Below are positions 3,644 to 59,817 of a stretch of 64,000 nucleotides of DNA, one piece after another (position 1 is the first letter of the stretch; the number at the start of each line of letters is the position of its first letter). This stretch comes from Squalus acanthias. Lineage: Eukaryota. The DNA lies in the NCBI GenBank assembly GCA_030390025.1, contig CM059432.1, forward strand, positions 25,608,001-25,672,000, written 5' to 3'. The notes below the pieces were generated by a model, which had not been told where the DNA came from, searched no databases, and was given only the letters and a program-made list of their open reading frames with translations. The position numbers were made by a program, and so were the translations under genes.

Positions 3644-6050
3644 AAGGCAATCTCATAGGTAATGGCAGCGAAATAGCAGAAATACTGAATAGTCACTTTG
3701 CCTCAGCATTTACCAGGGAGACTAACAAGATGGACATGACATTAGAAGAAGAGATCAAAAAAGATATCAAGACATTTAAGATCGAAAGGGGGAGATAATT
3801 GATAAACTAATCAAACTTAGAGAGGATAAAACCCCTGGTCAGTATGGATTGCATCTGCGCATATTAAAAGAAGTGAGGGAAGAGATAGCAGAGGCACTAT
3901 TACATATATATAACAATTTATTACAAAGGAATAATGCCAGGACTAGTGGACAGCTAATGTGATTTCTATATGTAAAAGGGGAGATCGAACAAGTCTAGGG
4001 AACAATAGAACAGTTAGCTTAAAGTCAGTGGTAGGAAAGATAATGTAGTCTTTATTCAAATATGTCAGCTAGAAATTGAAAATATAATAAAGAGTAGTCA
4101 GCACAGATTTCAAAAGGGAAAGTCATACTTGACCAACTTTATTGGCTTCTTTGAAGTAACAAAGAGTAGACAAGGGTAATGTAGTGGATGTAATATTTTT
4201 GGATTTTCAAAAGGCCTTCTATAAGTAGACTCATGACTAAGGTCAGAGCATGTGGAGTCAGGGGCAGGTAGCAGAATGGATAGCAAGCTGATAACAGAGT
4301 GTAGAGGTTAAGGGTAGCTACTGTAAGGGGTCACGGTACTGGTGCGAGGTGAGGCCTTCGTTGCCTATACTATTGCTTGCTCTGGTCTCCGGCCAGACTT
4401 TTGCAATAAGCACCTGTGAGTGGTTCGACCCACTCGCCCTTACGGTTCTGACACCTGGACTTAGATGCAAGGAGCAGTAATGCAGAGAAAAACTCAAATA
4501 GACCCGGTTGAATAGCACGAAATGAATATCTTTATTGCATGGCGTCTAAGATCATGAAATACATGTCATAGGCGCAGATCAAAGAGAGTACAAGTATACA
4601 CACGTTCATAAAACTTGGTCTATGGAAATGAGGAACACACGACACATCGAAAAAGGGGGAACACATTATACATTAACCTTAGAAAAACCACCCTCCCTCA
4701 ATATACCTAAACTACGTCTGGATTTGTAGGATCGGAAAAACATGCTCACCACTCGGCTCACTTCGGAACTTTAAAGTGAGGCACTCAGCTCGTTTCGCTG
4801 CACCGTCTGACTGTCACGTGTTTGGAAGGGTTTCTGCACCCCACTTGTTTACTCTCGCTGCCGCGAAAGGTAAGCCAGACTCCCTGATGTCATGAAGCAG
4901 TCGATGGACTCAGACCGGATCGTGCAGCAATCCGTAGAATTCAAAGGAAACAGTACATGTAGTAGTCGGTAGAATTCAAAGATGGGTTCTGTCGTTATAT
5001 CTTCTGGCGCGGTCGGGGTTTACTGACCGTGGCGGCACGTGGAATTTCTTCTCGTCTTTCTTCTCGTCACTCGGGCCTCCGGGTCCGGACACCGTTTACC
5101 GACACTCGGGATGGTGTACCCTGTTACTTGCCCTGTCGAGGCGGCTCGTTCCGATTGAGCTCCACCCAACACTCGAATAACCGACCAGCACGGCTAAGAG
5201 TCAAGAGTCAAGAGAGTCCAGCAAGAGCTTCAGGAAGAGTCAAGAGTCAAGAGAGAGGCCAGGAAGCGAGAGAGCGAATGGACATTTGTCCTCTATAGTT
5301 ATACTGTTATGTCGGCCTTATCTCCCGCTCATATCTAAACGTTTATTCTTTGTGTGATTTTTGGCGCCCAAAACTCCCAGCATGGGGCGATTATCTTCTT
5401 AACGGGTTTCGGTAGTACCTGAAACTGGCCAACTATCCGTTAATACCTTCTCCATTGTTGAGCCAGCCAGGATTGTAGAATTCGCAATATATCGCGATTT
5501 TATTAATAAGGAGAAAAACACATAGTTTCGTTCAAACAGCTTTTATTTCAGCAGAATGCTGTCAGGTTTTCAAAGTGGACACAAGCAGCTTGTAAAATGG
5601 CCGCCGCACCTCGTGACAGAACATTCTAGACTTTTCGACAGGCAGACAAGATGGCGTTCCAATAAACATTTGTGCAAGATCGATTAAGACTCAGCACATT
5701 GAAGATAATACACGAGACATCATGGGTTTACAGTATACACATAAATACTGAAATCGGTCTCCCAGGTACGAATAAAAGCTATTGTACCAAGCAATCAAGA
5801 ACCCATCCAAAGACATTAATATGTAAAATCCCAACGACTCTACGATGAGAGAGCCGTTAGCGGGTAGTTACAGAAAACACTTGGAAGCCCCAAAACCCCT
5901 CCAGGGAGAACACCGACCGATTAATCAATGGGAAAAATATTAACAGGTACTCAGACAATTACGAGTAGCCCCGAAACCCATTAAAACGAAGATCACCCTA
6001 TACAAGACATTTGAGCGCCAAACCCTAACAAAAGGAAAGACATTAAGGTT

Positions 6051-6081
6051 GGGCGGGAAACGGAAGATTTTGCACTATAAT
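6051..6081 (+). promoter_or_regulatory. Putative LTR core promoter (GC box + TATA-like)
   Basis: GGGCGG at 6051 and TATAAT at 6076; the GGGCGGGA...CACTATAA arrangement recurs in solo LTRs at about 21970-22000 and 58545-58575; YY1-type AAAATGGCCGCC/AAGATGGCG motifs lie upstream (about 5594, 5648). Confidence 0.5.
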
Positions 6082-6899
6082 TGCAAGCTCCAAACCGTCC
6101 ATCTCGCTCCTATTCAGTTGACTCTTATCTTGCTGGTGTTTATCCTCGTGGCTGCTCTTGACTCGCCGTCTTGTTCCTGCTTGCCTCGTGTCTCTTTTCA
6201 AAAGACTGTTGAACTTTATGATCCGCTCGAATCTACCTCGTGTCGTGTCGCGAAGACCTGTGTAGAACTGGGCTCTGAAGCCTTGAAGCGGGCGCACCAT
6301 CCCGATAAGTCGGTAAACGGTGTTGGAACCGAAGGCCCGAGATGAGATGAGATGAGATGAGATGAGAAGAGAAGAAGACCATACTTATCGCCACGGTCAG
6401 TAAGCTCCGACCGCGCCTGTAGGTCAAATAGACACTTTCCTTGCCCAGGAAGACTCTTCTTTGAGTTTTATCGAACCGGTGTGAGGGCACAGGAAGACTC
6501 TTTTTTTGAGTAGTGTCGGAACTCCGAGGACAACACAGATCTTCATGACAGCAGACGTTCCAGCCTGCTAGCCGGAGCAGAAACGAGTAAACAAGTGGGG
6601 CCCGGAGACCCCCTGATCGACACGTGGGTGCTGCGGTGAAAAACATCCGATCAGAGTTTTCGGAATTCTCCGAGTTATCACGAGTGGTGAGCATGAGTCT
6701 CGAATCCTACGAATCTAGCTTAGGACAGATATTGATAGGGGAGGGTTTTAAGTATTAAGGATAATTGTAATGTGTGCCCCCATTTACGATGTGTCGTTCG
6801 TTCCTCGTTTCCCTGAAATTAGTTACATAACTGCGTGTAAGATTGTACTGTCATTAATCTGTGCTTATGACATGTATTTCATAATCTTAAATATTATGC

Positions 6900-6905
6900 A
6901 ATAAA
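6900..6905 (+). promoter_or_regulatory. Putative LTR polyadenylation signal
   Basis: ATGCAATAAAGAT conserved in all related LTR copies, followed by T-rich sequence. Confidence 0.55.
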
Positions 6906-7149
6906 GATTTTCCATTTCGTACCATTCAACCGAGTCTACCTGAGTTTCATCTCCATTATTGCTCTCGCATCTAAGTCCAGTGTCTAGAACCGTAATGGCG
7001 AGTGGGTCGAACCACTCACAGGTGTGTATAGTGCTCCCAGACTGGCTGGAGACCAGAACAGGCAACAAGGCCTAAACCCGCACTAGCACCCGGGCTGCAC
7101 AGAGCCACACGAATCTCACAGGCTGAGAGACAAAAAACCCTTACAGAAA

Positions 7150-8958
7150 ATGGCGACCGCGGCAGGACACTGGCAGCGAGAGGGTAGTGTTTTAGACTTT
7201 GGTGTGAATGTACGAAATGTTATGCAGGAAAAGATAGCAGATTATGTGTTCGGAAAGGTAAATTTAACTAAGAAATGGATAAGTGACCTGTTAGCGGATA
7301 AGTGTCCACTAGAGGCAGCCGAGAGGTGGACAGATAGTAAGGAACATAAAAAGACAGTCGAGAAAGCAGTCTGGTTAATGTGTTACAAAAGGCAGGTCCA
7401 GATTTCAAACCAGATCATTACAGCGCAAACAGCTCGGATCAGGCATTTGGAGGAGGAAATGGATGAGAAGGTCTCTGGAGGGGAGTTGCTCATTAGGAAT
7501 TTAAGTGCGCTGCACCGAGAACGCCAGGAAATCACCAGTCACCATAAAGCAAAAATAGATTACCTCGAGTGCCAGGTCACTGAGGCAAAGTTAAGTGAGG
7601 GCAGACTAAAGGAACGATGTGCCCGCCAAGCTGCCCAAATAAGAGCCCAGGAAGAGAGCTTAACGGGGGTTAGGGCGGCATATAAGATGGCCCTTGAGGA
7701 TAAATTTCAGGGGACCGATCATAGCGTCTGCCAAAAGGAGATAGAGCACCTTAAAAGGGCCGTGAACAAAGCGCACGGCATGGTGTGCCTTATCAGTCCG
7801 TCAGCACACCAGCCACTAGTAGATGAGGAGTCTCAGAAATTCCCACCAAGTAAAGCAAAGGAAGTATTAGCCACTACGCCCTCCGCGCCACCCAGCTATT
7901 TGGAAACCTGGGTAAGGGAGGAAGTAGTAGAAGAAACGAAAGAGCCCACTGAGGAAGAAGTAGAAAAGGGACCGTTGTGTCCAGTTACGGGTATAAAAAG
8001 GGGCCCAAACAGAAACGGTGGGGAGGAACCAGGGGATCTCCTCAACCAGCTTGTGTTGCCTCACAGCTCACACCAGCTGAGAGTTATGATAAATCACGTA
8101 CGGAAGCTGACCGAGTCAGACGACCCTTCCGTACATTTCAGAGAAGTTGAGCAAACCGCAGCCATTAACGGCTGCGACGATGGGGAAACAGCAAAAATGC
8201 TGTTATTTTCGTTAGGCAGTTCAATCCTTCAGTGTCTCTCGGACGAGAGCAAGAGGGGAACCAAGACCTATGAGGCATTAAAAAATGAGGTCCTAGAAGT
8301 ATTGGGGACGGACGATGAAGGTCCGTTTGTTAGAGTGGGACAGACAGTGCAGATGGAGGGAGAACCCCCGAAGGTTTTTGCCGACAGGCTGTGGCCAGTA
8401 TATCAGCGCAGCTGTCCAGGTGCGCCAGAGCGCGACGCTGTGGACGGCGTCGGTTTAACTCATTGGCTCAGGTGTATAGTAGCCAACAGTTTGCCAGCCG
8501 TCAGAGAGCAGGCAAAAGCATGGTTTGATCCCACTGACCCCAACATTACGGAAGAGTCGGTCTTAAATCGACTCACGGTAGGATACCGTAATATAAGGGG
8601 TATGGGAACACGTCCCCTTAAGGGAAAAGTATATGAGGTACGACCCGCAGCCCCGGCTCAAAAGGAGTGGCATCAGGAGGGTAACCGCGCCCCGCAGGCA
8701 AGTAATGCTTGTTACGGGTGTGGGAGGACAGGGCACTGGCGCAAGAACTGCAGGAACCCTTGGAAGGATTCCAGGGATAAAAATCCCGCAGCCCGAGCCC
8801 AGATGCCTGTCTCTGTTAGGGAAGCTAGTGCACCCACCCCTCCCGACGACCTCGAAACAGTGTTGGGAGCCATGCGCAACTTTATGAGTGCACATGGAAG
8901 AGTGGCGGTTGCTACCGGCCCCGTAGGTGCCGCAGGCCCGTCTAACCATACCCAATGA
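7150..8958 (+). CDS. gag: Gag polyprotein (602 aa)
   Basis: Open ORF with strong Kozak (AAAATGG); N-terminal coiled-coil-like region; PSAPPSY late-domain motif (7879-7899); single CCHC knuckle CYGCGRTGHWRKNC (8710-8751). Confidence 0.92.
   Translation: MATAAGHWQREGSVLDFGVNVRNVMQEKIADYVFGKVNLTKKWISDLLADKCPLEAAERWTDSKEHKKTVEKAVWLMCYKRQVQISNQIITAQTARIRHLEEEMDEKVSGGELLIRNLSALHRERQEITSHHKAKIDYLECQVTEAKLSEGRLKERCARQAAQIRAQEESLTGVRAAYKMALEDKFQGTDHSVCQKEIEHLKRAVNKAHGMVCLISPSAHQPLVDEESQKFPPSKAKEVLATTPSAPPSYLETWVREEVVEETKEPTEEEVEKGPLCPVTGIKRGPNRNGGEEPGDLLNQLVLPHSSHQLRVMINHVRKLTESDDPSVHFREVEQTAAINGCDDGETAKMLLFSLGSSILQCLSDESKRGTKTYEALKNEVLEVLGTDDEGPFVRVGQTVQMEGEPPKVFADRLWPVYQRSCPGAPERDAVDGVGLTHWLRCIVANSLPAVREQAKAWFDPTDPNITEESVLNRLTVGYRNIRGMGTRPLKGKVYEVRPAAPAQKEWHQEGNRAPQASNACYGCGRTGHWRKNCRNPWKDSRDKNPAARAQMPVSVREASAPTPPDDLETVLGAMRNFMSAHGRVAVATGPVGAAGPSNHTQ
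7151..7168 (+). promoter_or_regulatory. Primer-binding site, tRNA-Arg(UCG)
   Basis: TGGCGACCGCGGCAGGAC is the reverse complement of the 3' 18 nt of vertebrate tRNA-Arg(TCG) (...GTCCTGCCGCGGTCG-CCA, recalled sequence); lies 5 nt after the LTR end. Confidence 0.88.
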
Positions 8959-11900
8959 CTAGAGCCCGCGCAGCCCGTCTACCTGTGTCCGCTCAGCTAT
9001 GATGCGTGGAAGCGACCCTTGGTGGAGATGGAGGTAGAGAAATTGAAGGGTAGTTATTTGTTGGACACGGGAGCTTCTTGCACCGTGATTCATACAGATA
9101 GCCCTTTTGACTCACTGCTATCTACCAAGGTCCCATTCACATTAGCGGGGTTCACGGGAAAAGAACAGGCTGGCGCATTCTCCTTTCCGCTATCCATTCG
9201 TTTGGGAGCACTTCACATCAAGTGGAAGTGCATATTGATGGAATGGCAGGAGGGGGGTGGAAGAGGTATCCTCGGGTCCGATCTCCTATCAGGGCACGGG
9301 ATCCTCGTGGACCTCAGAAATCATTGTCTCTGGGGGGCTAAGAGTGAAAAAGGCGAGGTAGTGGTAATTCCGGGGGAGGAAGAAACAGGGGTCCTGTGTA
9401 CCATGCAGCCATCCGGAGGCTACGACCTCGGGCTCATGGTAACAGATGTCCCAACGGACATGCAAGCGTACGTGTCAGATAATATGCACGCGTTTGCAAC
9501 CCACAAGCACGATTGTGGGAGGGTTACCGGGTTTGAGGTCAGCGTAGATGGGGACCCCATGACCCGGCCCCAAAAACAGTATAACTTCCCCAAAGAAGCA
9601 GAACCCGATATGGAGACAGCAATGTCCTCCTTGGTGCAGCAGGGCGTGTTGAGGCCGATAGCCACACACGTGAACTCCCCATTATGGCCGGTTAGGAAGC
9701 CAGATAATTCGTGGAGGGCCACGGTGGACTACAGAGTCCTTAACAGTAACATTCCCGCCTGCGCGCCCACGGTAGCAGCAGTTGCTGACCTAATAGGGAG
9801 TATCCCAGCGTCCGCGACCACGTTCACGGTGCTGGATATCTCGAACGGTTTTTGGTCCATCCCGCTGCGGCGAGAGGACCAGTACAAGTTTGCCTTTACT
9901 TTCAAAGGACAACAGTACACATGGAACTGTCTGCCACAGGGTTTCCACAATAGCCCCAGTATTTTCCATCAGTGTATGGCAGGAAGTTTAAAGGAGTTTA
10001 GTCAGCCCAATCAGATAGTGCAGTACGTGGATGATTTGCTCCTATTTACGGACTCAAGGGAGGAGCATGGACCACTGCTGGCCGAGTTATTGGAGCTGCT
10101 AGCGAGAAAGGGTTTTAAAGTAAATCCTAAGAAAGCGCGTATCGGTCAGCAGGAAGTAAAATTCCTGGGGCTGACCATTCGCGCTGGGGAAAGAGCCATA
10201 GATAAGGCTAGGAGGGAGTCGGTGCAAGAGTTACCGATTCCCAACACCATAAGGGGTGTGAGGTCCTTCTTGGGACTGACCGGTTACTGCAGAGATTTTA
10301 TCGAAGATTATGCGGCCGCAGCGGCGCCGCTCCTCCGACTCCTCCATAAGTGAGTGGAGTGGTCTTGGGACGAGGGCTGCCAAGCAGCCTTCGAGAAGTT
10401 AAAAAAGGATCTGCAGACCGCGCCAGCCTTAGGGGCCATAGATGGGGGGAAGGAGTTTTTCCTGGAGGTAGCTGCCAGCGGGGACAGCTTGAGCGCTGTG
10501 CTGCTCCAAGAGCGTCACGGCAAGCTGAGGCCGGTTGTCTATTCGTCCAGGGTGTTAACGGATGTGGAGAGGAGTTTCTCCAATTGCGAAAGGCACCTTT
10601 TAGCCACGCATTGGGCTGTGAAAAGATCAGCGATCTTCACAGGGCTCTCTCCCATCACTCTCCTCACCCATCACACACCAACTAAGATGCTTTTAGATGG
10701 GAGGATTAAAGATGGGACCGTAAGCAGCGTGCGCATTGCGCGCTGGACCCTTCTTCTTTCCCAGATGGATCTTAGAGTAAAAGGTCTTTGCGAGCCCAGG
10801 CTTGCGGCCAATTTGGTATACCCCGGTACAGCCCACCGATGTTCGGTGGAAGGGGTGTGGGACGTCAACATAGGTTTGCGGGCCGGGATACATCCCACTG
10901 GGCGCGAGATTTATGTTGATGGCTCTAGCACAGTATCTGCTGGCGAACGACTCACAGGGTGTGGAGTTTATGACCCTGCGGCAAACCTTGCCCTGGCGAT
11001 CAAGCTCCCTAGCACCATGAGCGCGCAGCAGGCTGAGCTGTCTGCAGTGGTGTACGTTGTTACCCACCCAGACATTTTCCCAACCACATACACGATTTGC
11101 TCGGACAGTATGTTCACATGTAATTCGTGTACGGAATACCTGGCCATTTGGTCCCGCCGTGGATACACCTCCGCGGACGGGCGACCTTTAACGGTGAAGC
11201 CCTTGCTGAAAAAGATCCTAGCAGCAGTAGGGGAGGAAGGGGAGATTTTCATCCATAAGGTGAAGGCTCACTCCTCCACAGAGCCCCGTGGGGAGGGCAA
11301 CCAGCAGGCGGATGCGCTAGCCAGGGAAGGTGCCCGCAACGGCATTTTCTGGGACCCCTATGGGACCAGACCCATGGCAGCGATCCAAGGCAGGGACGGG
11401 AATCCCGGGAACTCCAGGGTAGCATTGCCCCTAGACCTTAAGACCGTCCAAACCCAGGATCCCGCCCTAAAAGCAGTCATAAAAACCATTGCTGAGGGGA
11501 AGCAAGTAGAGGGTCCGTACAGTACGGCAACCCTCTCAGTTAAGGAAGGCATGCTGTTCCACGAGGAGCAGTGGGTTGTGCCGCAGCAGCACAGGAGGGA
11601 ATTCCTCCAGTTGGCTCACGAGGGACCAGGGGCAGGGCACCCCGGGCCCGAGGTTACCTGGCAACGGGTAGAGCAAGCGGGATGGTGGCCAGGGCTCAGG
11701 GAACAGGTCCGCGAGTTCTGTGCAAACTGTCTCGTGTGCGCTGCAAACAACCCAGACCCCCAGAAAAGGAAAGTGCCCATGGGGCACGTAAGAAGGGTAG
11801 AGGGACCATGGCAGTCGATACAGATCGACTATATAGGGCCCCTGCCCACCACCCAGGGAGGCTATAAATACTGCCTTGTCTTGGTGGATGTGTTTTCCAA

Positions 11901-13485
11901 ATGGGTGGAAGCCTTCCCCTGTCGAACAGCTACGGCACTGGGTACTGCAAAAATCTTGGTCAGGGAAGTGTTCTCGCGGTGGGGACTTCCCCGTTTTGTG
12001 GAGTCAGACCAAGGGAGTCATTTCACCGGCCAGGTGATGCAGAACACCCTCATGCTTTTGGGCATTGAAGGGAAGTGGCACGTAGCACACAATCCCCAGT
12101 CATCCGGGATTGTTGAACGCATGAACCGGACCCTGAAGGAGAAATTGAGGAAAGAGACTAGGAACTCGCCCCAAAAATGGGCGGAAGTTCTGCCTTTAGT
12201 CCTCATGGGGGTCCGGGCCAGTCAGTCAAAAAGTACGGGGTATTCCCCGCACGAGGTGATGACTGGGAGGCTCATGCGAACCCCCACCCATGTGCTAGCG
12301 CCGGTGCTCACTGAGGGTCAGCTTCAAGAGATAAGCAGGGACAAGTTCGCCCAGACCCTCTTGGAGCGCCTGAAGCAGGTTTATGAGCAGGCGGCTGGGA
12401 ACATGGGAAGGCAGCATCAGGGCAATCGCCTGTTGCTGGAACCCCGCAAAACGCGGGAGTGGGAAGTAGGAGACCAGGTCATGGTCAGAAACTACGCCAG
12501 AGTAGGGAGTCTGGATCCACTGTATATGGGACCCTACAACATTGTAGATAAGGCGAGTCCCATGGTATACGCCGTAAAGGTACCTCGGCGCACTAAGTGG
12601 TTCCATGTAAACCAGTGCAAACTGTACAAGCCAGGTGCACAAGGGAAAACCACAGGGGCAAAACCTGCGAGTGGGGACTCGCAGCCCCAGGTAGGACCAC
12701 AAGGCACACAGGCAGGCAAAGCAGCTTGCATCAGGGGAGGAGACATCCTGGAAAATTGTGAAACATTTTTGTGGGGTTGGGAGTCAGATGAGGGAGAGTT
12801 CCCGGAACTCGAGTCAGATGAGGATAGTGATGAGGACGAGTGGGAATCGGGGAACGCAAGGGTCGCCCCCGAATCAGGTATAGGGAGGACAGGGGCTGCA
12901 GATAGAGATCCACACAGGGTGGACACCGAGGCTGCAGGTCCCGAACACAGGAGGGAGGAGCTAGGGGAGGCGGAGCCAGCCGCTGTGAGACCACAGGGCG
13001 TGACGGCGGAAACCTCAGAGCCCGAGCCGCCCGCCTTGAACGTCCTGCCCTCGGGGGAGGTAGAGATTGCGAGGGAAGGGCCGCCTGCTGGGCCGAGCAG
13101 GGCGGTGCCACAAGCTGCTAGTCCCGAGGTCAGTGAGGCGGAGTCAGGGGAGGCGGAGCCAGCGACTGTGGTGGGACCACAGGTCGTCCCGGTGGAAGTC
13201 TCGGAACCCGGTCCGTCGGTCCTGGGATTCCTGCCCCCGACAACTCCTCGTAGGTCCAGTCGAGCACCCCAGCCCAGGAAGATGTGGTCATGTCCACAGA
13301 CTGCCCCAAGGCGCAGGCTTAAGGTTAAAGCAGCCCCGGAAGGGCCCAGTCCCATCGCAGCAGCAACAGGCTGCGGCAGATCAAAGGAAGGGGTCAGTGC
13401 AGCCACAGGCTGCGGCAGATCAAAGGAAGGGGTCAGTGCCCTCCCACCGTCGGGAAGAGCCCGCAGCAGCCTTCTCAGAATTTAA
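8959..13485 (+). CDS. pol: Pol (protease, RT, tether/degenerate RNase H, RNase H, integrase), in frame with gag; one internal TGA at 10351-10353
   Basis: LLDTGAS (PR); LDISNGF, LPQGF and YVDD (RT); tether with EVAAS; IYVDGSS...AQQAEL...SDS...KAH...GNQQAD (RNase H); HHCC plus IDYIGP/SDQGSHF/VERMNRTLK (IN); GPY motif. Confidence 0.93.
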
Positions 13486-13836
13486 AGGGGGCCGCCCTGG
13501 GAACGGGCGGCGCTGTACAGTAATAAGTTTAGGATAAGTTTTAAGTTCATAGTTTAAGTTTAAGTTTCTAGGTTTATAGTTTAAGGTTAAGAATAAGTTT
13601 ATAGTTTTAGATAAGGTTATAAGTTTATAGTTTTAAATAAGGTTAAGTTTGTAGTTTAATTTTAACAGAAAATGGTAAAATGATGGGAGTTTTAGATAGG
13701 TCTAGTTAAAGTTTATTTAGTGAACATTGAAGTTTACGTGAGGCGAGGTCAGGGGACCCGCTCACCCTTCACAAAAGCCAGAGACTCTTGCGAGGCTGGC
13801 TACCTCATTCTATCTGATCACAGGAACCAAGGAAGG

Positions 13837-16188
13837 ATGGAACGAATTCTAGTATTGCTCGCGGCAATCGGATGTGGATTGGCCTATCGAGGCCGCACCA
13901 AGGATGTCATGGTGTTTGGATGCTCCGGGGACACGGCCCCCATCGCGGTGGATGGGACCGGAAGACGGGAGGCTGAGGAGACCACCACCTATTTCCACAA
14001 GGGAAGGTGGCCAGGATGGCTGGGAACGAACTCAACGGAGTATTCCAGCACATCGGGGTTTGCCTACCAAGAGACTTCTTTAATGTGCCCCAAAGTAAGG
14101 ATCATCGCACCCAGGATCAGCGTCACCGTCGGCAAACGGATTTGTTTGACTTGTAATGGGAATGTCCCATTGAGCCGATGGTGGTGGCTGCGAAAGCTGA
14201 GCAAAAACATGAGGAACTCTTCGGTCGAGTGGGAACGACTGGGTAATAATACCCATCGGACAATTACGGGGACAAACGGACAAGTGAGAGTCTGTTGGGA
14301 CAAATGGTGGGAACCGGATGAGGGAATTTATGTATGCATGTGGGGGTCAAAGTACGCTTGCCCCAAAGGCATCTCCATATTTTTCATTAATCAATGGCAG
14401 GATAACGGACAGGGGATGAGGTGGGATGCGAGCACCAGGGGGTGCGGAGCCCCATACTCTTCTATCCCGGTAAATGCCACTGAGCTGATTACGCGCCCAC
14501 GCAAAGCCCCGCCCACGATTCCGGTGGTTCTAGCTGAAGAGGAAGGGTGCCCTAAAACTAGTAAGGGACCCGGGAATGGTTTGGTACTGGTCCCCACAGA
14601 CCAGATATTATTTCAGGGGGTACATTACGCGGTGGCCTCGGTGATTTTAAATCTCACCGAGGTGCGGTTACCAGAGTGGTGCCCCAAAAAGACGGAACAG
14701 TTATATCAGGTCCTGGTGACCAAGATGTTCAGACAATTTTACGAATTCGATTTCGCGGAAATTGATAAAACAAGTTTGTACACTGCACCACATGAAGTTT
14801 TTGATCAAGTGGGGAGACAAAGAAGGGGTGTAGTGAACGACGCGTTCACTGCTTTTAACACGGGTACATCTGTGGTCAACGCTCTAGACAGTGTGGAGCT
14901 GCAGACCCAGATTAATGGTTTAAAGGCGCAATTAAAAGACATTCTAACAGATGAAAACAAGGTGGTTGGGTCGGGTTTACACGAGGACCAAGCCATGACT
15001 CTCCATTTAAAGGAAATTATAGCAGAGCTAGAGAAACATGCAAAGACGTTAAATGCCCTGATTAGGGAAGATCGGAATGCATCCGATCAAGCTGCGCAGA
15101 ATGAGGTGTGCGTGCTTTACGGGGCGTGGTTACTGGGCGAGGGCCGCAGTAATTTGGAGGATTTAAAACAAGGTTTGGTCCCGTCCTGGATAAGTAACAA
15201 ACACCTGCGGGCGCTCCACCCTTTTCAGAACGCATTAAGCCCGTGCCAGCTCAGGTTAGCTTCAGAAGCATACCCAGTCCCCGTGGACTGCGGACGATCA
15301 AACCATACTATCATGGGTATAGTATTACGTATGCCGGTTTTGGGCGACACAGCAAAGCCCGCCCCGGTGTATCGGGTAGAGAACATTGGTGTCATTCAGG
15401 GGGGAGCCCACATTCGCTATGCAGCGGTTCCACCCTACGTCATCCGCTGGGAGCAAACGATGACAGGTACAGATCTCTCTGGTTGTCGTGGCAGGGGAGC
15501 ACACATAATACTGTGTCCCCAGCACTTGAATGCCTTTTTAACACCACAGTGCGGGTTCAGAACGGCTGGCGCCAAGTCCATGAATTGCACCATGGAGGCA
15601 ATGGCACAAGATCATGTGCCTCCGCAGGTAGCATACATCGGGGGTGGAACATATTGTGTTACCACTGCAGCGCAACACTACCAGCATGGAAACCGTAGCC
15701 GGTGTCCGGTGAGTGACAGCAGTTTCTGTTTCAAACCCAGGGCGGAAGTTCAAGTAGCACAACAGCGAATTGTCCCAATCCCTGAACCATCCACTGTTCA
15801 TCTTACAGTAAAAGAGAATTTCACCGACTTGCAGCGATTCGTCGCGCATTTCGGATACATCATTCCCCCTCTCCCTGAACACCTCACCAAGCTTTTGAAA
15901 GCCATCACGGTGTCACAGAAACATTTTTACACACTCGAACAGAAAACTGTCAAAATAGGGACAGACATTCTGGATATAGTAATTCCACCGTGGTGGAATC
16001 TGTTCACCAATATTGAAGTGCCTTCATGGATCAGAATAGCCTCCCACATTTTAGTCGTATGCCAAGTTTTTATTGTAGTGTACCTATTGATCGTACATTG
16101 TAAAAGAGGCAAACGCCTCACCAAGCATGAAAACACGGGAGAGTGGCGAGAACGTTACGTGCGCGTGCACGACGAAAGCACCATGTGA
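13837..16188 (+). CDS. env: Envelope glycoprotein, F-protein-like class I fusion protein with N-terminal Ig-like domain (783 aa from the ATG)
   Basis: ATG in AGGATGG context after candidate acceptor CACAG (13823); signal peptide MERILVLLAAIGCGLA; furin site RQRR (14815-14826); heptad repeat; Cys-rich ectodomain; several N-X-S/T sites; TM WIRIASHILVVCQVFIVVYLLIVHC; short tail. Confidence 0.88.
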   Translation: MERILVLLAAIGCGLAYRGRTKDVMVFGCSGDTAPIAVDGTGRREAEETTTYFHKGRWPGWLGTNSTEYSSTSGFAYQETSLMCPKVRIIAPRISVTVGKRICLTCNGNVPLSRWWWLRKLSKNMRNSSVEWERLGNNTHRTITGTNGQVRVCWDKWWEPDEGIYVCMWGSKYACPKGISIFFINQWQDNGQGMRWDASTRGCGAPYSSIPVNATELITRPRKAPPTIPVVLAEEEGCPKTSKGPGNGLVLVPTDQILFQGVHYAVASVILNLTEVRLPEWCPKKTEQLYQVLVTKMFRQFYEFDFAEIDKTSLYTAPHEVFDQVGRQRRGVVNDAFTAFNTGTSVVNALDSVELQTQINGLKAQLKDILTDENKVVGSGLHEDQAMTLHLKEIIAELEKHAKTLNALIREDRNASDQAAQNEVCVLYGAWLLGEGRSNLEDLKQGLVPSWISNKHLRALHPFQNALSPCQLRLASEAYPVPVDCGRSNHTIMGIVLRMPVLGDTAKPAPVYRVENIGVIQGGAHIRYAAVPPYVIRWEQTMTGTDLSGCRGRGAHIILCPQHLNAFLTPQCGFRTAGAKSMNCTMEAMAQDHVPPQVAYIGGGTYCVTTAAQHYQHGNRSRCPVSDSSFCFKPRAEVQVAQQRIVPIPEPSTVHLTVKENFTDLQRFVAHFGYIIPPLPEHLTKLLKAITVSQKHFYTLEQKTVKIGTDILDIVIPPWWNLFTNIEVPSWIRIASHILVVCQVFIVVYLLIVHCKRGKRLTKHENTGEWRERYVRVHDESTM

Positions 16189-16630
16189 TCGGAAAATGGC
16201 GTCACTCCCGCTCGCCTCGTGCGCCGCGGAAGTTTGTACTCGATCATGATTTTCAGAAACTGTAAATACGTTTGGAACTCGACATGTTTTAAGAGTTGGT
16301 GTTGATTATTTTGGTGATGGTGTTGTAGTTAAAAATGATTGTTTGGTTTTGTTTTGTTTTTCCTTTCCCTAAATAAAAATGTGAATATACAGGTGATACG
16401 AGAGGCATCGGCCTGGTTGCGCCTGGAAGGAAAACAAGTGGTGTAAGTTTAAAGGCAAATGATGCCTACGGTGATAATAAATGTAATTTTCTTGGGAAAT
16501 AAGGACGACGCAAAGACCCTAGATAGTTTAAGTTATGGGATTAAATTTTCTGGATTCGGAGAAAATTGAGATAATATTGCTCGCCACAATATTTTTTTTT
16601 GATACGATAAGCGGAGTTATTCGCATCAAC

Positions 16631-16639
16631 AGGAGGGAC
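16631..16639 (+). promoter_or_regulatory. Polypurine tract (short)
   Basis: AGGAGGGAC immediately 5' of the 3' LTR TG. Confidence 0.7.
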
Positions 16640-18311
16640 TGTAGAATTCGCAATATATCGCGATTTTATTAATAAGGAGAAAAACACATAGTTTCGTTCA
16701 AACAGCTTTTATTTCAGCAGAATGCTGTCAGGTTTTCAAAGTGGACACAAGCAGCTTGTAAAATGGCCGCCGCACCTCGTGACAGAACATTCTAGACTTT
16801 TCGACAGGCAGACAAGATGGCGTTCCAATAAACATTTGTGCAAGATCGATTAAGACTCAGCACATTGAAGATAATACACGAGACATCATGGGTTTACAGT
16901 ATACACATAAATACTGAAATCGGTCTCCCAGGTACGATTAAAAGCTATTGTACCAAGCAATCAAGAACCCATCCAAAGACATTAATATGTAAAATCCCAA
17001 CGACTCTACGATGAGAGAGCCGTTAGCGGGTAGTTACAGAAAACACTTGGAAGCCCCAAAACCCCTCCAGGGAGAACACCGACCGATTAATCAATGGGAA
17101 AAATATTAACAGGTACTCAGACAATTACGAGTAGCCCCGAAACCCATTAAAACGAAGATCACCCTATACAAGACATTTGAGCGCCAAACCCTAACAAAAG
17201 GAAAGACATTAAGGTTGGGCGGGAAACGGAAGATTTTGCACTATAATTGCAAGCTCCAAACCGTCCATCTCGCTCCTATTCGGTTGACTCTTATCTTGCT
17301 GGTGTTTATCCTCGTGGCTGCTCTTGACTCGCCGTATTGTTCCTGCTTGCCTCGTGTCTCTTTTCAAAAGACTGTTGAACTTTACGATCCGCTCGAATCT
17401 ACCTCGTGTTGTGTCGCGAAGACCTGTGTAGAACTGGGCTCTGAAGCCTTGAAGCGGGCGCACCATCCCGATAAGTCGGTAAACGGTGTTGGAACCGAAG
17501 GCCCGAGATGAGATGAGATGAGATGAGATGAGAAGAGAAGAAGACCATACTTATCGCCACGGTCAGTAAGCTCCGACCGCGCCTGTAGGTCGAATAGACA
17601 CTATCCTTGCCCAGGAAGACTCTTCTTTGAGTTTTATCGAACTGGTGTGAGGGCACAGGAAGACTCTTTTTTTGAGTAGTGTCGGAACTCCGAGGACAAC
17701 ACAGATCTTCATGACAGCAGACGTTCCAGCCTGCTAGCCGGAGCAGAAACGAGTAAACAAGTGGGGCCCGGAGACCCCCTGATCGACACGTGGGTGCTGC
17801 GGTGAAAAACATCCGATCAGAGTTTTCGGAATTCTCCGAGTTATCACGAGTGGTGAGCATGAGTCTCGAATCCTACGAATCTAGCTTAGGACAGATATTG
17901 ATAGGGGAGGGTTTTAAGTATTAAGGATAATTGTAATGTGTGCCCCCATTTACGATGTGTCGTTCGTTCCTCGTTTCCCTGAAATTAGTTACATAACTGC
18001 GTGTAAGATTGTACTGTCATTAATCTGTGCTTATGACATGTATTTCGTAATCTTAAATATTATGCAATAAAGATTTTCCATTTCATACCATTCAACCGAG
18101 TCTACCTGAGTTTCATCTCCATTATTGCTCTCGCATCTAAGTCCAGTGTCTAGAACCGTAAGGGCGAGTGGGTCGAACCACTCACAGGTGTGTATAGTGC
18201 TCCCAGACTGGCTGGAGACCAGAACAGGCAACAAGGCCTAAACCCGCACTAGCACCCGGGCTGCACAGAGCCACACGAATCTCACAGGCTGAGAGACAAA
18301 AAACCCTTACA
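16640..18311 (+). repeat. 3' LTR (1672 bp)
   Basis: Direct repeat of 5474-7145, preceded by a purine tract and followed by TSD GGAT. Confidence 0.96.
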
Positions 18312-19383
18312 GGATGTGTATGAATCGTCTCCTCGACTGGTTTTGGGGCCCCCCGAATACTGGCTTAATCACCCGCCAATGTCTCTCTCATTGTTGAGCC
18401 GGGGGTGGGGGGGGTATTTGTGTATTGATGTGTCTAGATGGGTTCAATGATCCTTACTGTGCGTAGGAAACGATTCCAGCACTTATATCATTGCTATTGT
18501 TCAAGATGCGAACGGGTTGCATCCTGTCTTTACAATGTGTACCGAGTATGATCCGATCTCATACTGAATGTATATTCGACGCCATCTTGTCTGCCCACTG
18601 TGTCTCTGGAAGCTTCTGCCACGATGCGCGGCGGCCATTTTACAGGCTTCTGTGTCCTTATTATCAGGGCAGCATTTCGTTTAATAAAAATGATCAATTG
18701 AATCTGCTTCTCTCATGTTATTTTGAATCGCGATAATTGCGAAACTCTACACTACTCAGACTGGCAAAAGGTGGGAAGTGGTGTTCCACAGAGATCGATG
18801 CTGGGACCACGGTTGTTCACAATTTAAATTAATGATTTGGACTCGTGAATCGGAAGTACAATTTCTAAATTTGCAGACAACACCAAATTTGAGGGTATAG
18901 TTAATACAAAGGAAGAATGCGACAAAATACAGGAAGACATTAATAAGTTTGCAGACTGGGTATGTAATTGGCAAATGAATTTCAACATAGATAAGTGTGA
19001 GGTGGTGCATTTTGGTAGGAAGAATAAGGAGGCCACATATTAATTGGATTAATGGGGGGAATTTTGCCGGTGCTCAGGGAGCGGGTTTGGAGGCGGGACC
19101 GGTGGCAAAATTGCAAAGATTGACAGCGGGTCCCTAACCCGCTGTCAACCCGCCTCCAGTCAATCTTCCCGGGTGTCGGGTCCCCGATTTGCGCAGGGAT
19201 CTGACACCTAGCGGCGGAAGAGGATTATAGGCACTTAACTGCTTGTTAACAGGTTGTTAACAGGCAGTTAAGAGGCTTTTTCCAATTTTGGCATGTCTAC
19301 TGCAGGCTTCCCGACGTCCGGACACCACGCCAGGGTAAGTGTGGTGTGCTGTGGGTCTACTGTAATGTTTCTTCATTGATGAC

Positions 19384-20729: not shown

Positions 20730-23160
20730 CCTGATCCCCAATCACACCTGCAAATCCTCCCTACCCCGAAACCCGATCACATCTGCAACACCCTCCCGAT
20801 CCCCGATCATATCTGCAAAACCCTCCCGAGCCCCAATCACATCTGCAACACCCTCCCGATCCCCGATCATATCTGCAAAACCCTCCTGAGCCCCGATCAC
20901 ACCTGCAACACCCCCCGATCCCCGATCACATCTGCAACACCCTCCCCAGCCCCGATCACATCTGAAACACTCTCCCGAGCCCTGATCACATCTGCAGTAG
21001 CCTCCCAAGTCCCGATCACATCTGTAACACACCACCCGATCCCCGATCATATCTGTAACACACCACCTGATCCCCGATTACATCTGTAACACACCACCCG
21101 ATCCGCGATCACATCTGCAACACCCTCCCCAGCCCCGATCACATCTGCAACACCTTTCCCAGCCCCGATCACATCTGCAACACCCTCCCCAGCCCCGATC
21201 ACATCTGCAACACCTCTCCCCTGATCCCCGATCACATCTGCAACACCCTCCCCAGCCCCGATCACATCTGCAACACCTCTCCTGAGCCCCGATCACATCT
21301 GCAATCCCCCACCCTGGATCACGTCTGCAAAATCCCCCAATCCCCGATCACGACTGTAACACCCTCCCCAGCCCCGATCATGTCTGTAAAGTTTCGCAAT
21401 TATCGCGATTCGAAATAACAAGATAGAAGCAGATTCGTTTGATCAGTTTATTTAAACAAAATGCTGTCATGATATAAAGGACACAGAAGCCTGTAAAAAG
21501 GCTGCCGCGCATTGTGGCAGAAGCTTCCAGAAGTACAGTGGGCAGACAAGATGGCGTTTGAATAAACATTTTCAATATAAGACGGGATCATACTCGATAA
21601 GCACTGATAAAGACAGGATGCAACCTGTTTGCATTTGTGACAATAGCAAAAGATATAAGTGCTGGAATCGTTTTCAAGTAAGGACCATTGTACTGGGCAA
21701 TCGAAGGCCCATCCAGACACATCAATACACAAATACCCCCACGGCTCTACAGTGAGAGAGCCATTCTCGGGTGATTAAACAAGCATTCGGGGGCCCCCCA
21801 AAACCAGTCAGGGAGACGATTCATACGATCCTGGCTGGGCCAACAATGGGGAGAACATTAACGGGTAGTTGGCCAGTTTCAGGTGCTACCGAAACCCGTT
21901 AAAGACAAGAATCGCCCCATGCTGGGAGTTTTGAGCGCCAATATTTCACAAAGGACAAACATTAAGATTTGGGCGGGAGATAAGGGAACACAGCACTATA
22001 ACTATAGTGAACAAATGTCCATCGGTCTCTTATTCTCTTGATTCGGGGCCTTATTCTCTTATCTCGCTGCTGACTGCAGAGGGTTTTCGGTGTTCTCTCT
22101 GGACTCTGTTGACTATGTTGGGTGGAGCTCAAACGGAAGGAGCCGCCTCAATGAGGGCCAGTGACCGTGTGCACCATCCCGAGAGTTGGTAAACGGTGTC
22201 TGGACCCGAAGGCCCGAAGAGACGAGACGAGACGAGACGAGAAGAAGAGGAGAAGAATCCACGTGCCGCCGCGGTCAGTAAACCCCGACCGCGCCCAAAA
22301 ATATACGACCCATTTCTTGAACTCTACAGGTTACTGCACGAACTGGTCAAAGACTCTTTTTCGAATTCTACCGGCAACCGGTGTCGGACACAGGAAGACT
22401 CTTCTTCGAACCGTGTCCGAGTTCTGTCGAGTTCTTCATGACAACGGGGATCCCAGCCTGCTTGCCGCAGCAGCGAAGATAAACAAGTGGGGTACAGAGA
22501 CCCCTCAAAACACGTGACAGTCAGGCGCTGCAGCGAAACGAGCCGAGTGCCTCACTTTTAAAATTCTCCGAAGTATCACGAGTGGTGAGCATGTTTCCCG
22601 ATCCTACAAATCTAGATGTAGTGTAGGTATTGATAGGGGAGGGTGGTTTTATTAAGGATAAAGTATAATGTGTTCCCCCTTTTACGATGTGCCGTGCGTT
22701 CTTCATTACCATAGACCAAGCTTTATGAATGTATGTATACTTGTACTCTCGTTAATTTGCGCCTATGACATGTACTTCATGATTTTGGACGCTATGCAAT
22801 AAAGATTTCCATTTCGTACTATTCAACCGGGTCTATTTGAGTTTTTCTCTGCATTACTGCTCTCGCACCTAAGTCCAGTGTTAGAACCGTAAGGGCGAGT
22901 GGGTCGAACCACTCACAGGTGCTTATTGCAACAAGGCTGGCCGGAGACCAGAGCAAGCAATAGTATTAGGCAACGAAGGCCTAACCTCGCACCAGCACTG
23001 TCTGTGATACAAGCACGCCAAAACCCCTTACATGTCTGCAATAAGGCCCCCCGATCCCTGATCACATCTGCAACACCTCCCCAATCATGTCTGCAACACC
23101 TCTCCCAATCCCTGATTGTGTCTGAAACACCCCTCCCGATCGTCTCCAGACCCCTCCCCA
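20730..23160 (+). repeat. About 30-bp minisatellite (CCCCGATCACATCTGCAACACCCTCCCCAG), split by the solo LTR (20730-21384, 23037-23160)
   Basis: More than 20 visible degenerate tandem copies; lies inside a GC-rich MITE-like segment (about 20470-23395). Confidence 0.9.
21385..23032 (+). mobile_element. Solo LTR (1648 bp, subfamily B)
   Basis: TGTAAAGTTTCGC...CCCCTTACA; TSD TGTC at 21381-21384 and 23033-23036; shares blocks with the proviral LTR. Confidence 0.92.
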
Positions 23161-57946: not shown

Positions 57947-59817
57947 AGTTAAGTAAATCTGGCCATGATGTAGAATTCGCAAAATTATCGCGATTTTATA
58001 AAATAAGAAGGAGACATAAAGTTTCGTACAAACAGCTTTATTTCAGCAGAATGCTGTCAGGTTTCAAAGCGGACACAAACAGCCTGTAAAATGGCCGCCA
58101 CGCCTCGTGGCAGAACGTTCTAGACTTTCAATGGGCAGACAAGATGGCGTTCCAATAAACATTTGTGCAAGATCGTACAGGACTCAGCACATTTGAGATA
58201 ATTGACAAGACATGATGGGTTTGCATTTTATACATAAATACTGGAATCGGTCTCCCAGGTGCGAATAAGGGCTATTGTACCGAGCGATCAAGAACCCATC
58301 CAAAGACATTAATATGCAAAATCCCCACGACTCTACGATGAGAGAGCCGTTTGCGGGTAGTTACAGAAAGCATTTGGAAGCCCCAAAACCCCTCCAGGGA
58401 GACTACTAGCCGGTTCCACAATGGGAGAAGTATTAACGGGTACTCAGACAGTTACAAGTATCACCGAAACCCATTAGAAACGGAGATCACCCTATACAAG
58501 AAGTTTGAGCGCCAAAACCCTGACAAAAGATAGACATTAAGATTGGGCGGGAAAAGAGGAATTACAGCACTATAACTGTAAGGTATAACCGTCCATCTTT
58601 CGCTTGATGCTCTTGCTGCTGACTGCTGCCTCTGCTTCTTCTTGCTCTTGCTGCTTTGACTCGCTGGAAGGCTGTTGAACTTTTATTCTCTTGCCTGACG
58701 GCTCTGGACTCTGATCCGCTAGGATCAACCTCGTGGCTTGCCGCGAAGATCTGTGTAGAACTGGGCTGTGAGGCCTGGAAGCGGGCACACCATCCCGAGA
58801 AGTCGGTAAACGGTGTTGGAACCGAAGCCCCGAGAGGAGATGAGATGAGATGAGATGAGATGAGAAGAGAAGAAGACGACAATACGTATCGCCACGGTCA
58901 GTAAGCCCCGACCGCGCCTGTAAGTCGAATAAACACTTCCTTGCCCAGGAAGACCCTTCTTTGAGTTTTACAAACTGGTGAGGGCACAGGAAGACTCTTT
59001 TTCGAGTAGTATCGGAACTCCGAGGACAACACAGATCTTCATGACAGCAGACGGTCCAGCCTGCTAGCCGGAGCAGAAACGAGTAAACAAGTGGGGTACA
59101 GAGACCCCTGATCAGCACGTGGATAGTCAGGTGCTGCGGTAAAAACATCTGAGCAGAGTTTCGGAATTCTCCGAGTTATCACGAGTGGTGAGCATGAGTC
59201 TCGATCCTACAAATCTAGATTAGGACAGGTATTGATAGGGGAGGGTTTAAGTTTTAAGGATAATTATAATGTGTGTCCCCTTTTTCGATGTGTCATGCGC
59301 TCCTCGTTTCCCTAAAATTAGTTACATAACTGTGCGTAAGATTGTACTGTCGTTAATCTGTGCTTATGACATGTACCTCGTAATCTTGAATAATATGCAA
59401 TAAAGATTTCCATTTCGCACTATTCAACCGGGTCTACCTGAGTTTTTCTCTGCATTATTGCTCTCGCACCTAAGTCCAGTGTCAGAACCGTAAGGGCGAG
59501 TGGGTCGAACCACTCACAGGTGTCTAGTGTTACCAGGCTGGCTGGAGACCAGAACAGGCAACAAGGCCTAACCTCGCACTAGCACCCAGGCTAAGCACAG
59601 AGCCGCAGGTCACCCCTTACAATGATGAGGCCATCCCTGGCCTCCCGGGCAACAATGTGGTCGGGTGCTGATGCCCTCTATCCTGTGCAGCATCAGGTGA
59701 TTGCGGAGAAGGTTGGTGTTGTTGTTGGTGCTGCTGGTATGCCTGGTGCTGCTGGTGTTGGGGCTCATCGTGGTCAGATTCTGAGGACCAAGGTGAGACT
59801 GTATAAATGGCACCCAT
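57947..59817 (-). pseudogene. Harbinger transposase remnant (N-terminus joined to C-terminal helix; core deleted; split by solo LTR)
   Basis: Removing the LTR restores HIVAREARDGLIMARFT-stop, resembling the usual Harbinger transposase end; Q/H-rich N-terminus from ATG 59817. Confidence 0.55.
57969..59621 (+). mobile_element. Solo LTR (1653 bp, same subfamily as the provirus)
   Basis: TGTAGAATTCGC...CCCCTTACA; TSD ATGA at 57965-57968 and 59622-59625; colinear with the proviral LTR including the (GAGAT)n tract. Confidence 0.93.

What the first reader, a model, noticed from the sequence alone, without database searches (positions are those of the whole stretch)
7141..7170. Gag start codon overlaps the primer-binding site; no leader between PBS and gag
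Seen: LTR-CA|GAAA-A-TGGCGACCGCGGCAGGAC. The TG of the PBS completes an ATG in strong Kozak context, so the PBS encodes MATAAG. The LTR-PBS spacer is 5 nt instead of the usual 2 or so. Inferred: packaging/dimerisation signals must lie in the long R-U5 or in gag, and tRNA annealing could block translation initiation, giving a translation-versus-packaging switch.
Basis: partly seen in the sequence, partly recalled or inferred. Interest (0 to 1): 0.72.

Follow-up and report, generated by a model that had tools for sequence, protein, structure and literature searches.

The report
Gag start inside tRNA primer site
In a large family of fish endogenous retroviruses the coat-protein (gag) reading frame opens inside the site where the host tRNA primer binds, so there is no untranslated leader behind that site; the next 70 bases likely serve both as protein code and as one strand of a predicted RNA stem, but sister lineages spread with the start moved, so the overlap is common rather than essential.

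Summary
Observation confirmed. A young provirus (LTRs 5474-7145 and 16640-18311) has CA|GAAAA|TGG; the last spacer A plus the primer-binding site (18-nt match to host tRNA-Arg-TCG) gives an ATG that opens the 602-codon gag frame. 2706 of 2835 exact copies of this site have the A. The frame to the second Met (24 codons) is kept in most lineages, a skate homolog and homologs about 34% identical. Lineages lacking this ATG gained another 8-10 codons before the second Met; one lineage lacks the second ATG; one has the first ATG out of frame. Codons 7-24 show weak amino-acid constraint but pair, with compensatory changes, with the sequence just after the LTR poly(A) signal: a predicted R/U5-gag stem enclosing the primer site. 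Use of the ATG is inferred, not shown; no cap site or Ribo-seq data. The 5-nt spacer is not special (1-5 nt in relatives). A tRNA-operated switch is untested and more likely a late lock than the trigger. The element is snakehead-retrovirus-like, not a lokiretrovirus. A primer site inside gag is known from yeast Ty1. The scan noted this before elsewhere in the same genome.

The parts
5470..5473 (.). left target-site duplication GGAT (right copy 18312-18315)
5474..7145 (+). 5' LTR, 1672 bp, TG...CA, 11 mismatches to the 3' LTR
6900..6905 (+). likely poly(A) signal AATAAA; ATGs are depleted between it and the PBS (7 seen, 33 expected over 18 related representatives) but not upstream of it (74 vs 78)
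   Evidence: use as poly(A) signal inferred
6913..6985 (+). 5' arm (R/U5) of the predicted long stem that pairs with 7165-7219
7000..7017 (+). conserved U5 hairpin; its loop is both near-palindromic and complementary to the tRNA T-loop (candidate dimer-initiation or primer-activation element, untested)
   Evidence: function inferred
7146..7150 (+). 5-nt LTR-PBS spacer; its last base is the A of the ATG
7150..7152 (+). first in-frame gag ATG (ATG1), overlapping the PBS
7151..7168 (+). primer-binding site for tRNA-Arg(TCG); encodes (M)ATAAG
7165..7219 (+). gag codons 6-24, also the 3' arm of the predicted stem
7222..7224 (+). second in-frame ATG (codon 25), conserved in 74 of 80 A-type loci, TTG in one lineage
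7150..8958 (+). gag, 602 aa, weak zinc-knuckle match near the C terminus, ending in TGA in frame with pol
8959..13485 (+). pol (protease, RT, tether, second RNase H, integrase); one in-frame stop at 10351-10353 in this copy
13837..16188 (+). env, 783 aa, with its own ATG; look-alikes by language-model features are F-type fusion proteins
16631..16638 (+). polypurine tract
   Evidence: read from sequence
16640..18311 (+). 3' LTR

Best explanation
The ATG formed by the last spacer base and the TG of the primer-binding site opens the gag frame and is likely the main Gag start in this lineage, so the host tRNA dictates the first six residues, and the next 70 bases likely double as one strand of a predicted R/U5-gag RNA stem that would do the job of the missing leader. 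Mechanism. (1) Shown in sequence: PBS = complement of tRNA-Arg(TCG); two host isodecoders give MATAAG or MATTKG. (2) Inferred: transcription starts near the poly(A) signal, the ATG-poor U5 (about 120-260 nt in the family) is scanned, and ATG1 is the first good start in most copies. (3) Predicted, with covariation: the bases just after the poly(A) signal pair with PBS-end to codon 24, closing a multiloop that holds U5, the spacer and most of the PBS. (4) Inferred by analogy with HIV-1, FIV and MPMV U5/gag long-range interactions and Ty1: a ribosome must open this stem, while the closed form is the one Gag binds and packages, so the fold is the likely translation-versus-packaging control. (5) Inferred: tRNA annealing, which in retroviruses needs Gag/NC chaperoning (recalled), would cover the UG of the start codon and lock an already committed RNA out of translation; it would be a latch, not the trigger. 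(6) Shown by comparison: the start can move (to 8-10 codons before the second Met, or to the second Met), so what the family conserves is a start within about 70 nt of the PBS and the stem, not the overlap itself.
For: A before the PBS in 2706 of 2835 exact copies and 376 of 393 with the second isodecoder PBS (by subtraction). ATG1 in frame, 72 nt before the second Met, on both sides of the deepest split of the Gag tree, in a skate protein (54% identity) and in unnamed homologs at about 34% identity. Codons 7-24 stop-free in 74 of 80 vs 5 and 3 of 80 in the other frames. Lineages without ATG1 have an in-frame ATG 10 codons before the second Met in 23 of 27 related loci, with PBS-to-Met distances spread over 68-75 nt, and more distant ones 8 codons before it: a compensating start. 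One lineage keeps ATG1 and has TTG at the second-Met position in 7 of 7 copies. Purine at -3 in 74 of 80. No ATG between AATAAA and the PBS in 58 of 91 loci. Stem: z -3.4 for the window; best of 377 tiles of the internal region; z -3.4 to -7.0 in 11 of 12 representatives; own partner best in 8 of 12 rows and 9 of 12 columns; 89% of cells paired, 16 of 56 pairs with double-sided change, 62 such cells vs 22 in shuffles, 33-43% paired when slid.
Against: No translation, cap-site or structure-probing data. Amino-acid constraint on codons 8-24 is weak: pN/pS 0.67 vs 0.29 for codons 25-60, and mismatches are flat over codon positions (498/500/536), so the stem could explain much of the conservation. 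A lineage of 9 of 9 copies has ATG1 out of frame (14-codon upstream ORF) and keeps the second Met. The second ATG is itself conserved (74 of 80) with a purine at -3 in 73 of 74. A CpG test found 19 stop-type vs 12 sense-type variants at codon 10: no sign of selection for an open frame there. The tree has no outgroup, and more distant lineages lack ATG1, so which state is ancestral is not settled. The structure scored came from the window's own fold, copies are related, and RNAalifold recovered only the inner half of the stem over all 22 sequences.
Confidence: 0.6

Rival explanations
1. Gag starts at the second ATG (7222); the 72 nt before it are an ordinary short structured leader, and ATG1 is a by-product of an A-rich spacer in front of the obligatory TGG.
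For: Weak amino-acid constraint on codons 8-24; the stem explains nucleotide conservation; second Met conserved in good context; out-of-frame lineage multiplied; CpG test negative.
Against: A strong-context in-frame first ATG on a scanned, ATG-poor leader is hard to skip; the frame is stop-free like core gag; lineages without ATG1 gained a new upstream ATG rather than simply using the second Met; one lineage has no second ATG; the stem tolerates 68-75 nt in ATG1-less lineages while ATG1 lineages hold 72.
Confidence: 0.12
2. Both ATGs are used, giving a long and a short Gag by leaky scanning, with the ratio set by whether the PBS is covered; lineages differ in which start they kept.
For: Nearly all lineages carry two in-frame starts, an upstream one (ATG1 or its replacement) and the conserved Met; single lineages survive with only one of them.
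Against: ATG1 is in strong context in 74 of 80 loci, which leaves little leak; the Met could be conserved as a residue (it is replaced by Leu in one lineage). No protein data.
Confidence: 0.18
3. Annealing of tRNA-Arg, or of its 3' fragments, to the PBS is the primary switch that turns Gag translation off.
For: An 18-bp duplex of about -41 kcal/mol would cover the UG of the start codon and five more codons; 3'-tRNA fragments that target the PBS lower ERV RNA and protein (PMC7472051 passages); the ATG's A and the spacer are predicted unpaired.
Against: Lineages without the overlap multiplied (129 non-A copies of this PBS); annealing of intact tRNA normally needs Gag/NC (recalled), which places it after commitment; nothing here tests it.
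Confidence: 0.1

Closest known systems
Snakehead retrovirus (SnRV) and related ERVs (clade Huo of PMC6001957; lineage I elephant-shark ERVs of PMC4422223)
   Same: RT 44% identical over 261 aa to a protein whose motifs match the SnRV row of the PMC7947760 supplement; gag and pol in one frame across a stop codon (SnRV read-through listed in PMC13517186); second RNase H; Arg-tRNA primer (recalled for SnRV; source paper not held).
   Different: SnRV has a noncoding region between PBS and gag (PMC12193657 passage) and a UAG at the gag-pol junction, here TGA; closer RTs (51-54%) are unnamed or from frogs and coelacanth, so this is a related lineage, not SnRV.
Saccharomyces Ty1 (Pseudoviridae)
   Same: PBS lies inside the GAG ORF; 53-nt 5' UTR plus 327 nt of GAG form one domain for translation, packaging and priming, closed by long-range pairing with the RNA 5' end (PMC4974528, PMC5454406 passages).
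   Different: Ty1's start codon lies in the LTR about 40 nt before a 10-nt PBS; here the start codon is made by the PBS itself, in an env-bearing vertebrate retrovirus-type element.
U5/gag long-range interactions and the U5-leader (PBS) stem of HIV-1, FIV, MPMV
   Same: Pairing of U5 with sequence 3' of the PBS or at the gag start; start-codon access linked to packaging (PMC13736810, PMC1865047 passages).
   Different: Those viruses have a separate psi-bearing leader between PBS and gag; here leader and gag 5' end are the same bases and the predicted stem has about 50 pairs.
Lokiretroviruses (PMC7947760)
   Same: gag-pol-env with tether plus new RNase H, RXKR-like cleavage site and an F-type Env look-alike.
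   Different: RT motif here is LPQGF, not the PFGY-NSP of Loki RTs seen in the supplement; that study found Loki in 0 of 3 cartilaginous-fish genomes; no Loki sequence was in my tree.

Membership tests
Endogenous retrovirus (Retroviridae-type provirus) | Paired LTRs TG...CA with target duplication, PBS, PPT | tested here: met
Endogenous retrovirus (Retroviridae-type provirus) | gag-pol-env order with PR-RT-tether-RNase H-IN | tested here: met
Endogenous retrovirus (Retroviridae-type provirus) | RT closer to retroviral than to Ty3/gypsy RTs | tested here: met
   PDB: foamy Pol/RT 1e-47 to 1e-52, MLV-type 1e-46, Ty3 1e-32; four gypsy-like RTs split off with support 100
Endogenous retrovirus (Retroviridae-type provirus) | Untranslated leader between PBS and gag | tested here: not met
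   usual but not definitional
SnRV-related ERVs (clade Huo) | RT groups with SnRV / class III ERVs in a full retrovirus tree | tested here: inconclusive
   44% identity and a shared 92-support branch that also holds other retroviral RTs, in a quick tree of 22 database hits without a reference set
SnRV-related ERVs (clade Huo) | Arg-tRNA primer | tested here: met
   for this family; the SnRV primer is recalled
Lokiretrovirus | RT in the Loki clade (PFGY-NSP motif in the published alignment) | tested here: not met
   motif comparison only
Lokiretrovirus | Env similar to Mononegavirales F protein | tested here: inconclusive
   Atlas feature scores 0.93-0.94 to Fusion_gly/Baculo_F clusters; no Pfam hit, no PDB sequence hit, fold model unusable
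Ty1-type layout (PBS inside gag) | PBS translated as part of Gag | not testable with these tools
   frame evidence only; needs ribosome profiling or proteomics
U5/gag long-range interaction | Conserved, covarying pairing of U5 with the gag 5' end | tested here: met
   computational:
U5/gag long-range interaction | Needed for dimerisation or packaging | not testable with these tools
   no experiment

The most novel reading that the evidence does not exclude
A leaderless retrovirus in which the primer tRNA (or its 3' fragment) directly gates Gag initiation: annealing covers the start codon, shifts ribosomes to the second Met or silences the RNA, and the choice of tRNA isodecoder rewrites the Gag N-terminus in each replication cycle, with the whole packaging signal folded from R/U5 and the first gag codons.
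Probability: 0.15. Interest if true: 0.8.

Novelty: new variant of a known kind. Interest (0 to 1): 0.48.

Why it matters
Textbook retroviruses keep a packaging leader between primer site and gag. Here a family with thousands of young copies has folded primer site, start codon, N-terminal codons and the predicted packaging scaffold into about 75 bases, and natural sister lineages supply the controls (start moved, second start lost, first start out of frame). That makes it a compact system for asking how one RNA is split between translation and packaging, and whether host tRNA fragments can repress an ERV by sitting on its start codon. The layout principle is already known from Ty1, which limits the surprise.

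Tried and rejected
Lokiretrovirus assignment: my first reading from the gene layout, dropped after RT motif comparison. Expression, cap site and env splice junction: no RNA holder on record was listed; contigs of six runs guessed to be RNA or of unknown kind cover the element but show no start, end or gag-env splice joint among the joints listed: no evidence either way. CpG stop-versus-sense test at codon 10: 19 vs 12, no support. Amino-acid selection on codons 8-24: weak (in the main clade alone, same-residue codon change 0.22 vs 0.23-0.48 in later windows and amino-acid difference 0.22 vs 0.11-0.32). Env: no Pfam or PDB sequence hit; single-sequence model pLDDT 37, not used for a fold search. 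The upstream ATG at 6995 differs between the two LTRs and is absent from related copies: treated as private to this copy. A CCGCGG palindrome in the PBS as dimer signal: absent from the second isodecoder PBS, rejected. No conserved TATA box located. The PBS frames of published Loki consensus sequences could not be surveyed: the supplement is cut and I saw only passages. A slice was off by one base, so its printed 'False' for the tRNA match is an indexing slip; the match is read. Stop counts used representatives mostly picked from open copies; one search is the unselected count.

Full report
The element. Window 5474-18311 is a young provirus: LTRs of 1672 bp (TG...CA) with 11 mismatches and a GGAT target duplication, gag 7150-8958, a TGA in frame with pol, pol with protease, RT, tether, second RNase H and integrase (one in-frame stop at 10351-10353 in this copy), and env 13837-16188. 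Named protein relatives come from a skate and a sawshark, so the host is likely a cartilaginous fish (inference). I first read it as a lokiretrovirus from the layout and the F-type Env look-alikes. The RT says otherwise: its motif is LPQGF where the Loki rows of the published alignment have PFGY-NSP, it is 44% identical to a protein matching the SnRV row, and that study found Loki in 0 of 3 cartilaginous fish. Best label: SnRV-related (clade Huo), not formally shown, since my tree had no reference set.

The observation. After the LTR's CA come GAAAA (7146-7150) and an 18-nt PBS (7151-7168) that is the complement of CCA plus the last 15 nt of a host tRNA-Arg(TCG) gene. The spacer's last A and the PBS's TG form ATG at 7150, with A at -3 and G at +4, opening 602 codons. 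The G at +4 is forced by the tRNA's CCA, and an A before TGG is a common accident, so the ATG alone proves little. The spacer is 1-5 nt in relatives, and 2-4 nt is given as usual for ERVs.

Is the ATG kept? Genome-wide, 2706 exact copies of this PBS are preceded by A and 129 by another base; for a second PBS that matches another tRNA-Arg(TCG) gene and gives MATTKG, 17 of 393 lack the A. These counts are dominated by one expanded clade. I therefore sampled loci to enrich rare types (112 loci, counting the window and leaving out nine duplicates and four tRNA loci; plus 16 and 17, some the same places) and found four layouts. Type A: ATG1 in frame, 72 nt before a conserved second Met; 74 of 80 A-preceded loci have ATG at codon 25 and 74 of 80 are open to it; codons 7-24 are stop-free in 74 of 80 against 5 and 3 of 80 in the other frames, as in core gag. 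The same 24-residue extension is in a skate protein (MATTKG..., 54% identity) and in unnamed proteins at 34-42% identity (MATAAG...). Type B: no ATG1; 23 of 27 related loci have a new in-frame ATG 10 codons before the second Met (4 have a variant codon there; 3 further loci of the 30 were an unrelated family), and the PBS-to-Met distance drifts from 68 to 75 nt; more distant lineages have it 8 codons before. Type C: ATG1 present but out of frame, 71 nt, a 14-codon upstream ORF, 9 of 9 copies. Type D: ATG1 present, TTG at the second-Met position in 7 of 7 copies, 6 of them in frame to that point or beyond. On a Gag tree of 21 unrepaired representatives, type A sits on both sides of the deepest split and on the longest branch, B forms two groups, D lies among B and C beside A; the root is a midpoint only.

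What this says. A start upstream of the conserved Met is kept or replaced in nearly every lineage, which fits translation of the extension. But the extension's amino acids are weakly constrained: pN/pS 0.67 against 0.29 and 0.40 for later codons over 13 representatives, with no third-position excess, and a CpG test gave 19 stop-type to 12 sense-type variants, which is no support. Type C shows that ATG1's frame can be lost while copies still accumulate, either because the second Met suffices or because those copies were mobilised in trans.

The stem. Folding showed why the extension is constrained at the nucleotide level. In the window, 6913-6985, right behind the AATAAA at 6900, pairs with 7165-7219 (z -3.4). 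Among 377 tiles of the internal region the post-PBS tile is the best partner of that segment; the cognate duplex has z -3.4 to -7.0 in 11 of 12 representatives of types A, B and C (one at -1.7), and divergent lineages prefer their own partner (8 of 12 rows, 9 of 12 columns; the misses fall mostly within groups of close relatives). On an alignment of 22 copies, 89% of cells pair, 16 of 56 pairs change on both sides (62 cells against 22 in shuffles), and slid controls pair at 33-43%. RNAalifold alone recovers the inner half with 8 of 27 pairs compensated. The structure was derived from the window and the copies are related, so these controls overstate significance. The spacer and the A of ATG1 are predicted unpaired; the last four PBS bases pair with U5. 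Between AATAAA and the PBS, ATGs are depleted (7 seen, 33 expected from dinucleotide shuffles, 18 related representatives) but not in the same length upstream (74 vs 78); 58 of 91 loci have none. This suggests a cap site near the poly(A) signal and a scanned leader of 120-260 nt, not a long R-U5; contig data could not place it.

Mechanism, committed. ATG1 is likely the main start (about 0.75 that it is used at all). The R/U5-gag stem is likely the structural scaffold that other retroviruses build from a separate leader, and opening versus closing it is the likely translation/packaging control, by analogy with HIV-1, FIV and MPMV and Ty1. tRNA annealing (about -41 kcal/mol) would cover the start codon, but it normally follows Gag binding (recalled), and lineages without the overlap multiplied, so I rank it as a late latch. 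Host 3'-tRNA fragments, which lower ERV RNA and protein through the PBS, would here land on the start codon; untested.

Novelty. A PBS inside gag is known for Ty1. SnRV has a noncoding stretch between PBS and gag. Full-text searches for a gag start codon overlapping or inside the PBS and for SnRV leaders listed no paper whose title or abstract describes this layout in a vertebrate retrovirus; I opened only some of them, and most subscription papers are not searched. The scan's own notes report the overlap and the isodecoder swap elsewhere in this genome and similar overlaps in unrelated retrotransposons; I had reached the overlap and swap before reading them, and they are not independent support. 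The covarying stem is not mentioned in the lines shown. Papers seen: PMC7947760 (first quarter of text, passages, supplement passages; supplement cut), PMC4422223 (first half), and passages only of PMC9040795 (no hits), PMC4974528, PMC5454406, PMC7472051, PMC12853362, PMC5210030, PMC13517186, PMC12193657, PMC6001957, PMC1865047, PMC7828637 and PMC13736810; Hart et al. 1996 on SnRV was not held, and its Arg primer is recalled.

Verdict. Real and conserved; a new variant of a known kind; interest 0.48. The switch by tRNA remains a testable idea at about 0.1-0.15.

Noticed in passing
window 8950-8962: gag ends in TGA followed by CTAG, in frame with pol: a type II-like read-through context; SnRV and gammaretroviruses are listed with UAG, some fish ERVs with UGA (PMC13517186 passage).
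   Followed up: partly
window 7000-7017 and 6985-6992: Conserved U5 hairpin whose loop could pair with the tRNA T-loop (primer-activation-like) or with itself (kissing loop); a second GAACC sits about 20 nt upstream in most lineages.
   Followed up: partly
G000:C24:44794443 (L141) versus the arrays on G000:C26: The second primer type (393 PBS copies) matched only one exact tRNA-Arg(TCG) gene pattern in the genome, against 422 matches for the first type, many in tandem arrays with a 1.6-kb period.
   Followed up: partly
window 7146-7150 and 16631-16639: The two ends of the linear DNA would be unequal: 5 extra bases beyond the U5 CA but about 1-2 between PPT and the U3 TG, so integrase would trim unequal lengths; spacer length varies 1-5 nt among relatives.
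   Followed up: no
window about 22240-23030 and 57970-59620: Two diverged solo-LTR-like copies of the same family (70% and about 90% identical over matched parts); ends not mapped.
   Followed up: no
window 12534-13481: Pol carries a long low-complexity C-terminal extension after integrase, with an open 315-codon frame on the opposite strand.
   Followed up: no
L034, L050, L054: An unrelated LTR element family uses the same tRNA-Arg PBS with a 3-nt spacer and a first long ORF starting 120-190 nt downstream, i.e. with an ordinary leader.
   Followed up: no
L154-L156: Main-clade copies that lack the A before the PBS but have an in-frame ATG at codon 19; two of them have ORFs of 488 or more codons from it.
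   Followed up: no
window 5594-5603, 5648-5656, 7147-7154: AANATGGC motifs resembling the YY1/TISU consensus (recalled) occur twice near the LTR start and at the gag start itself.
   Followed up: no
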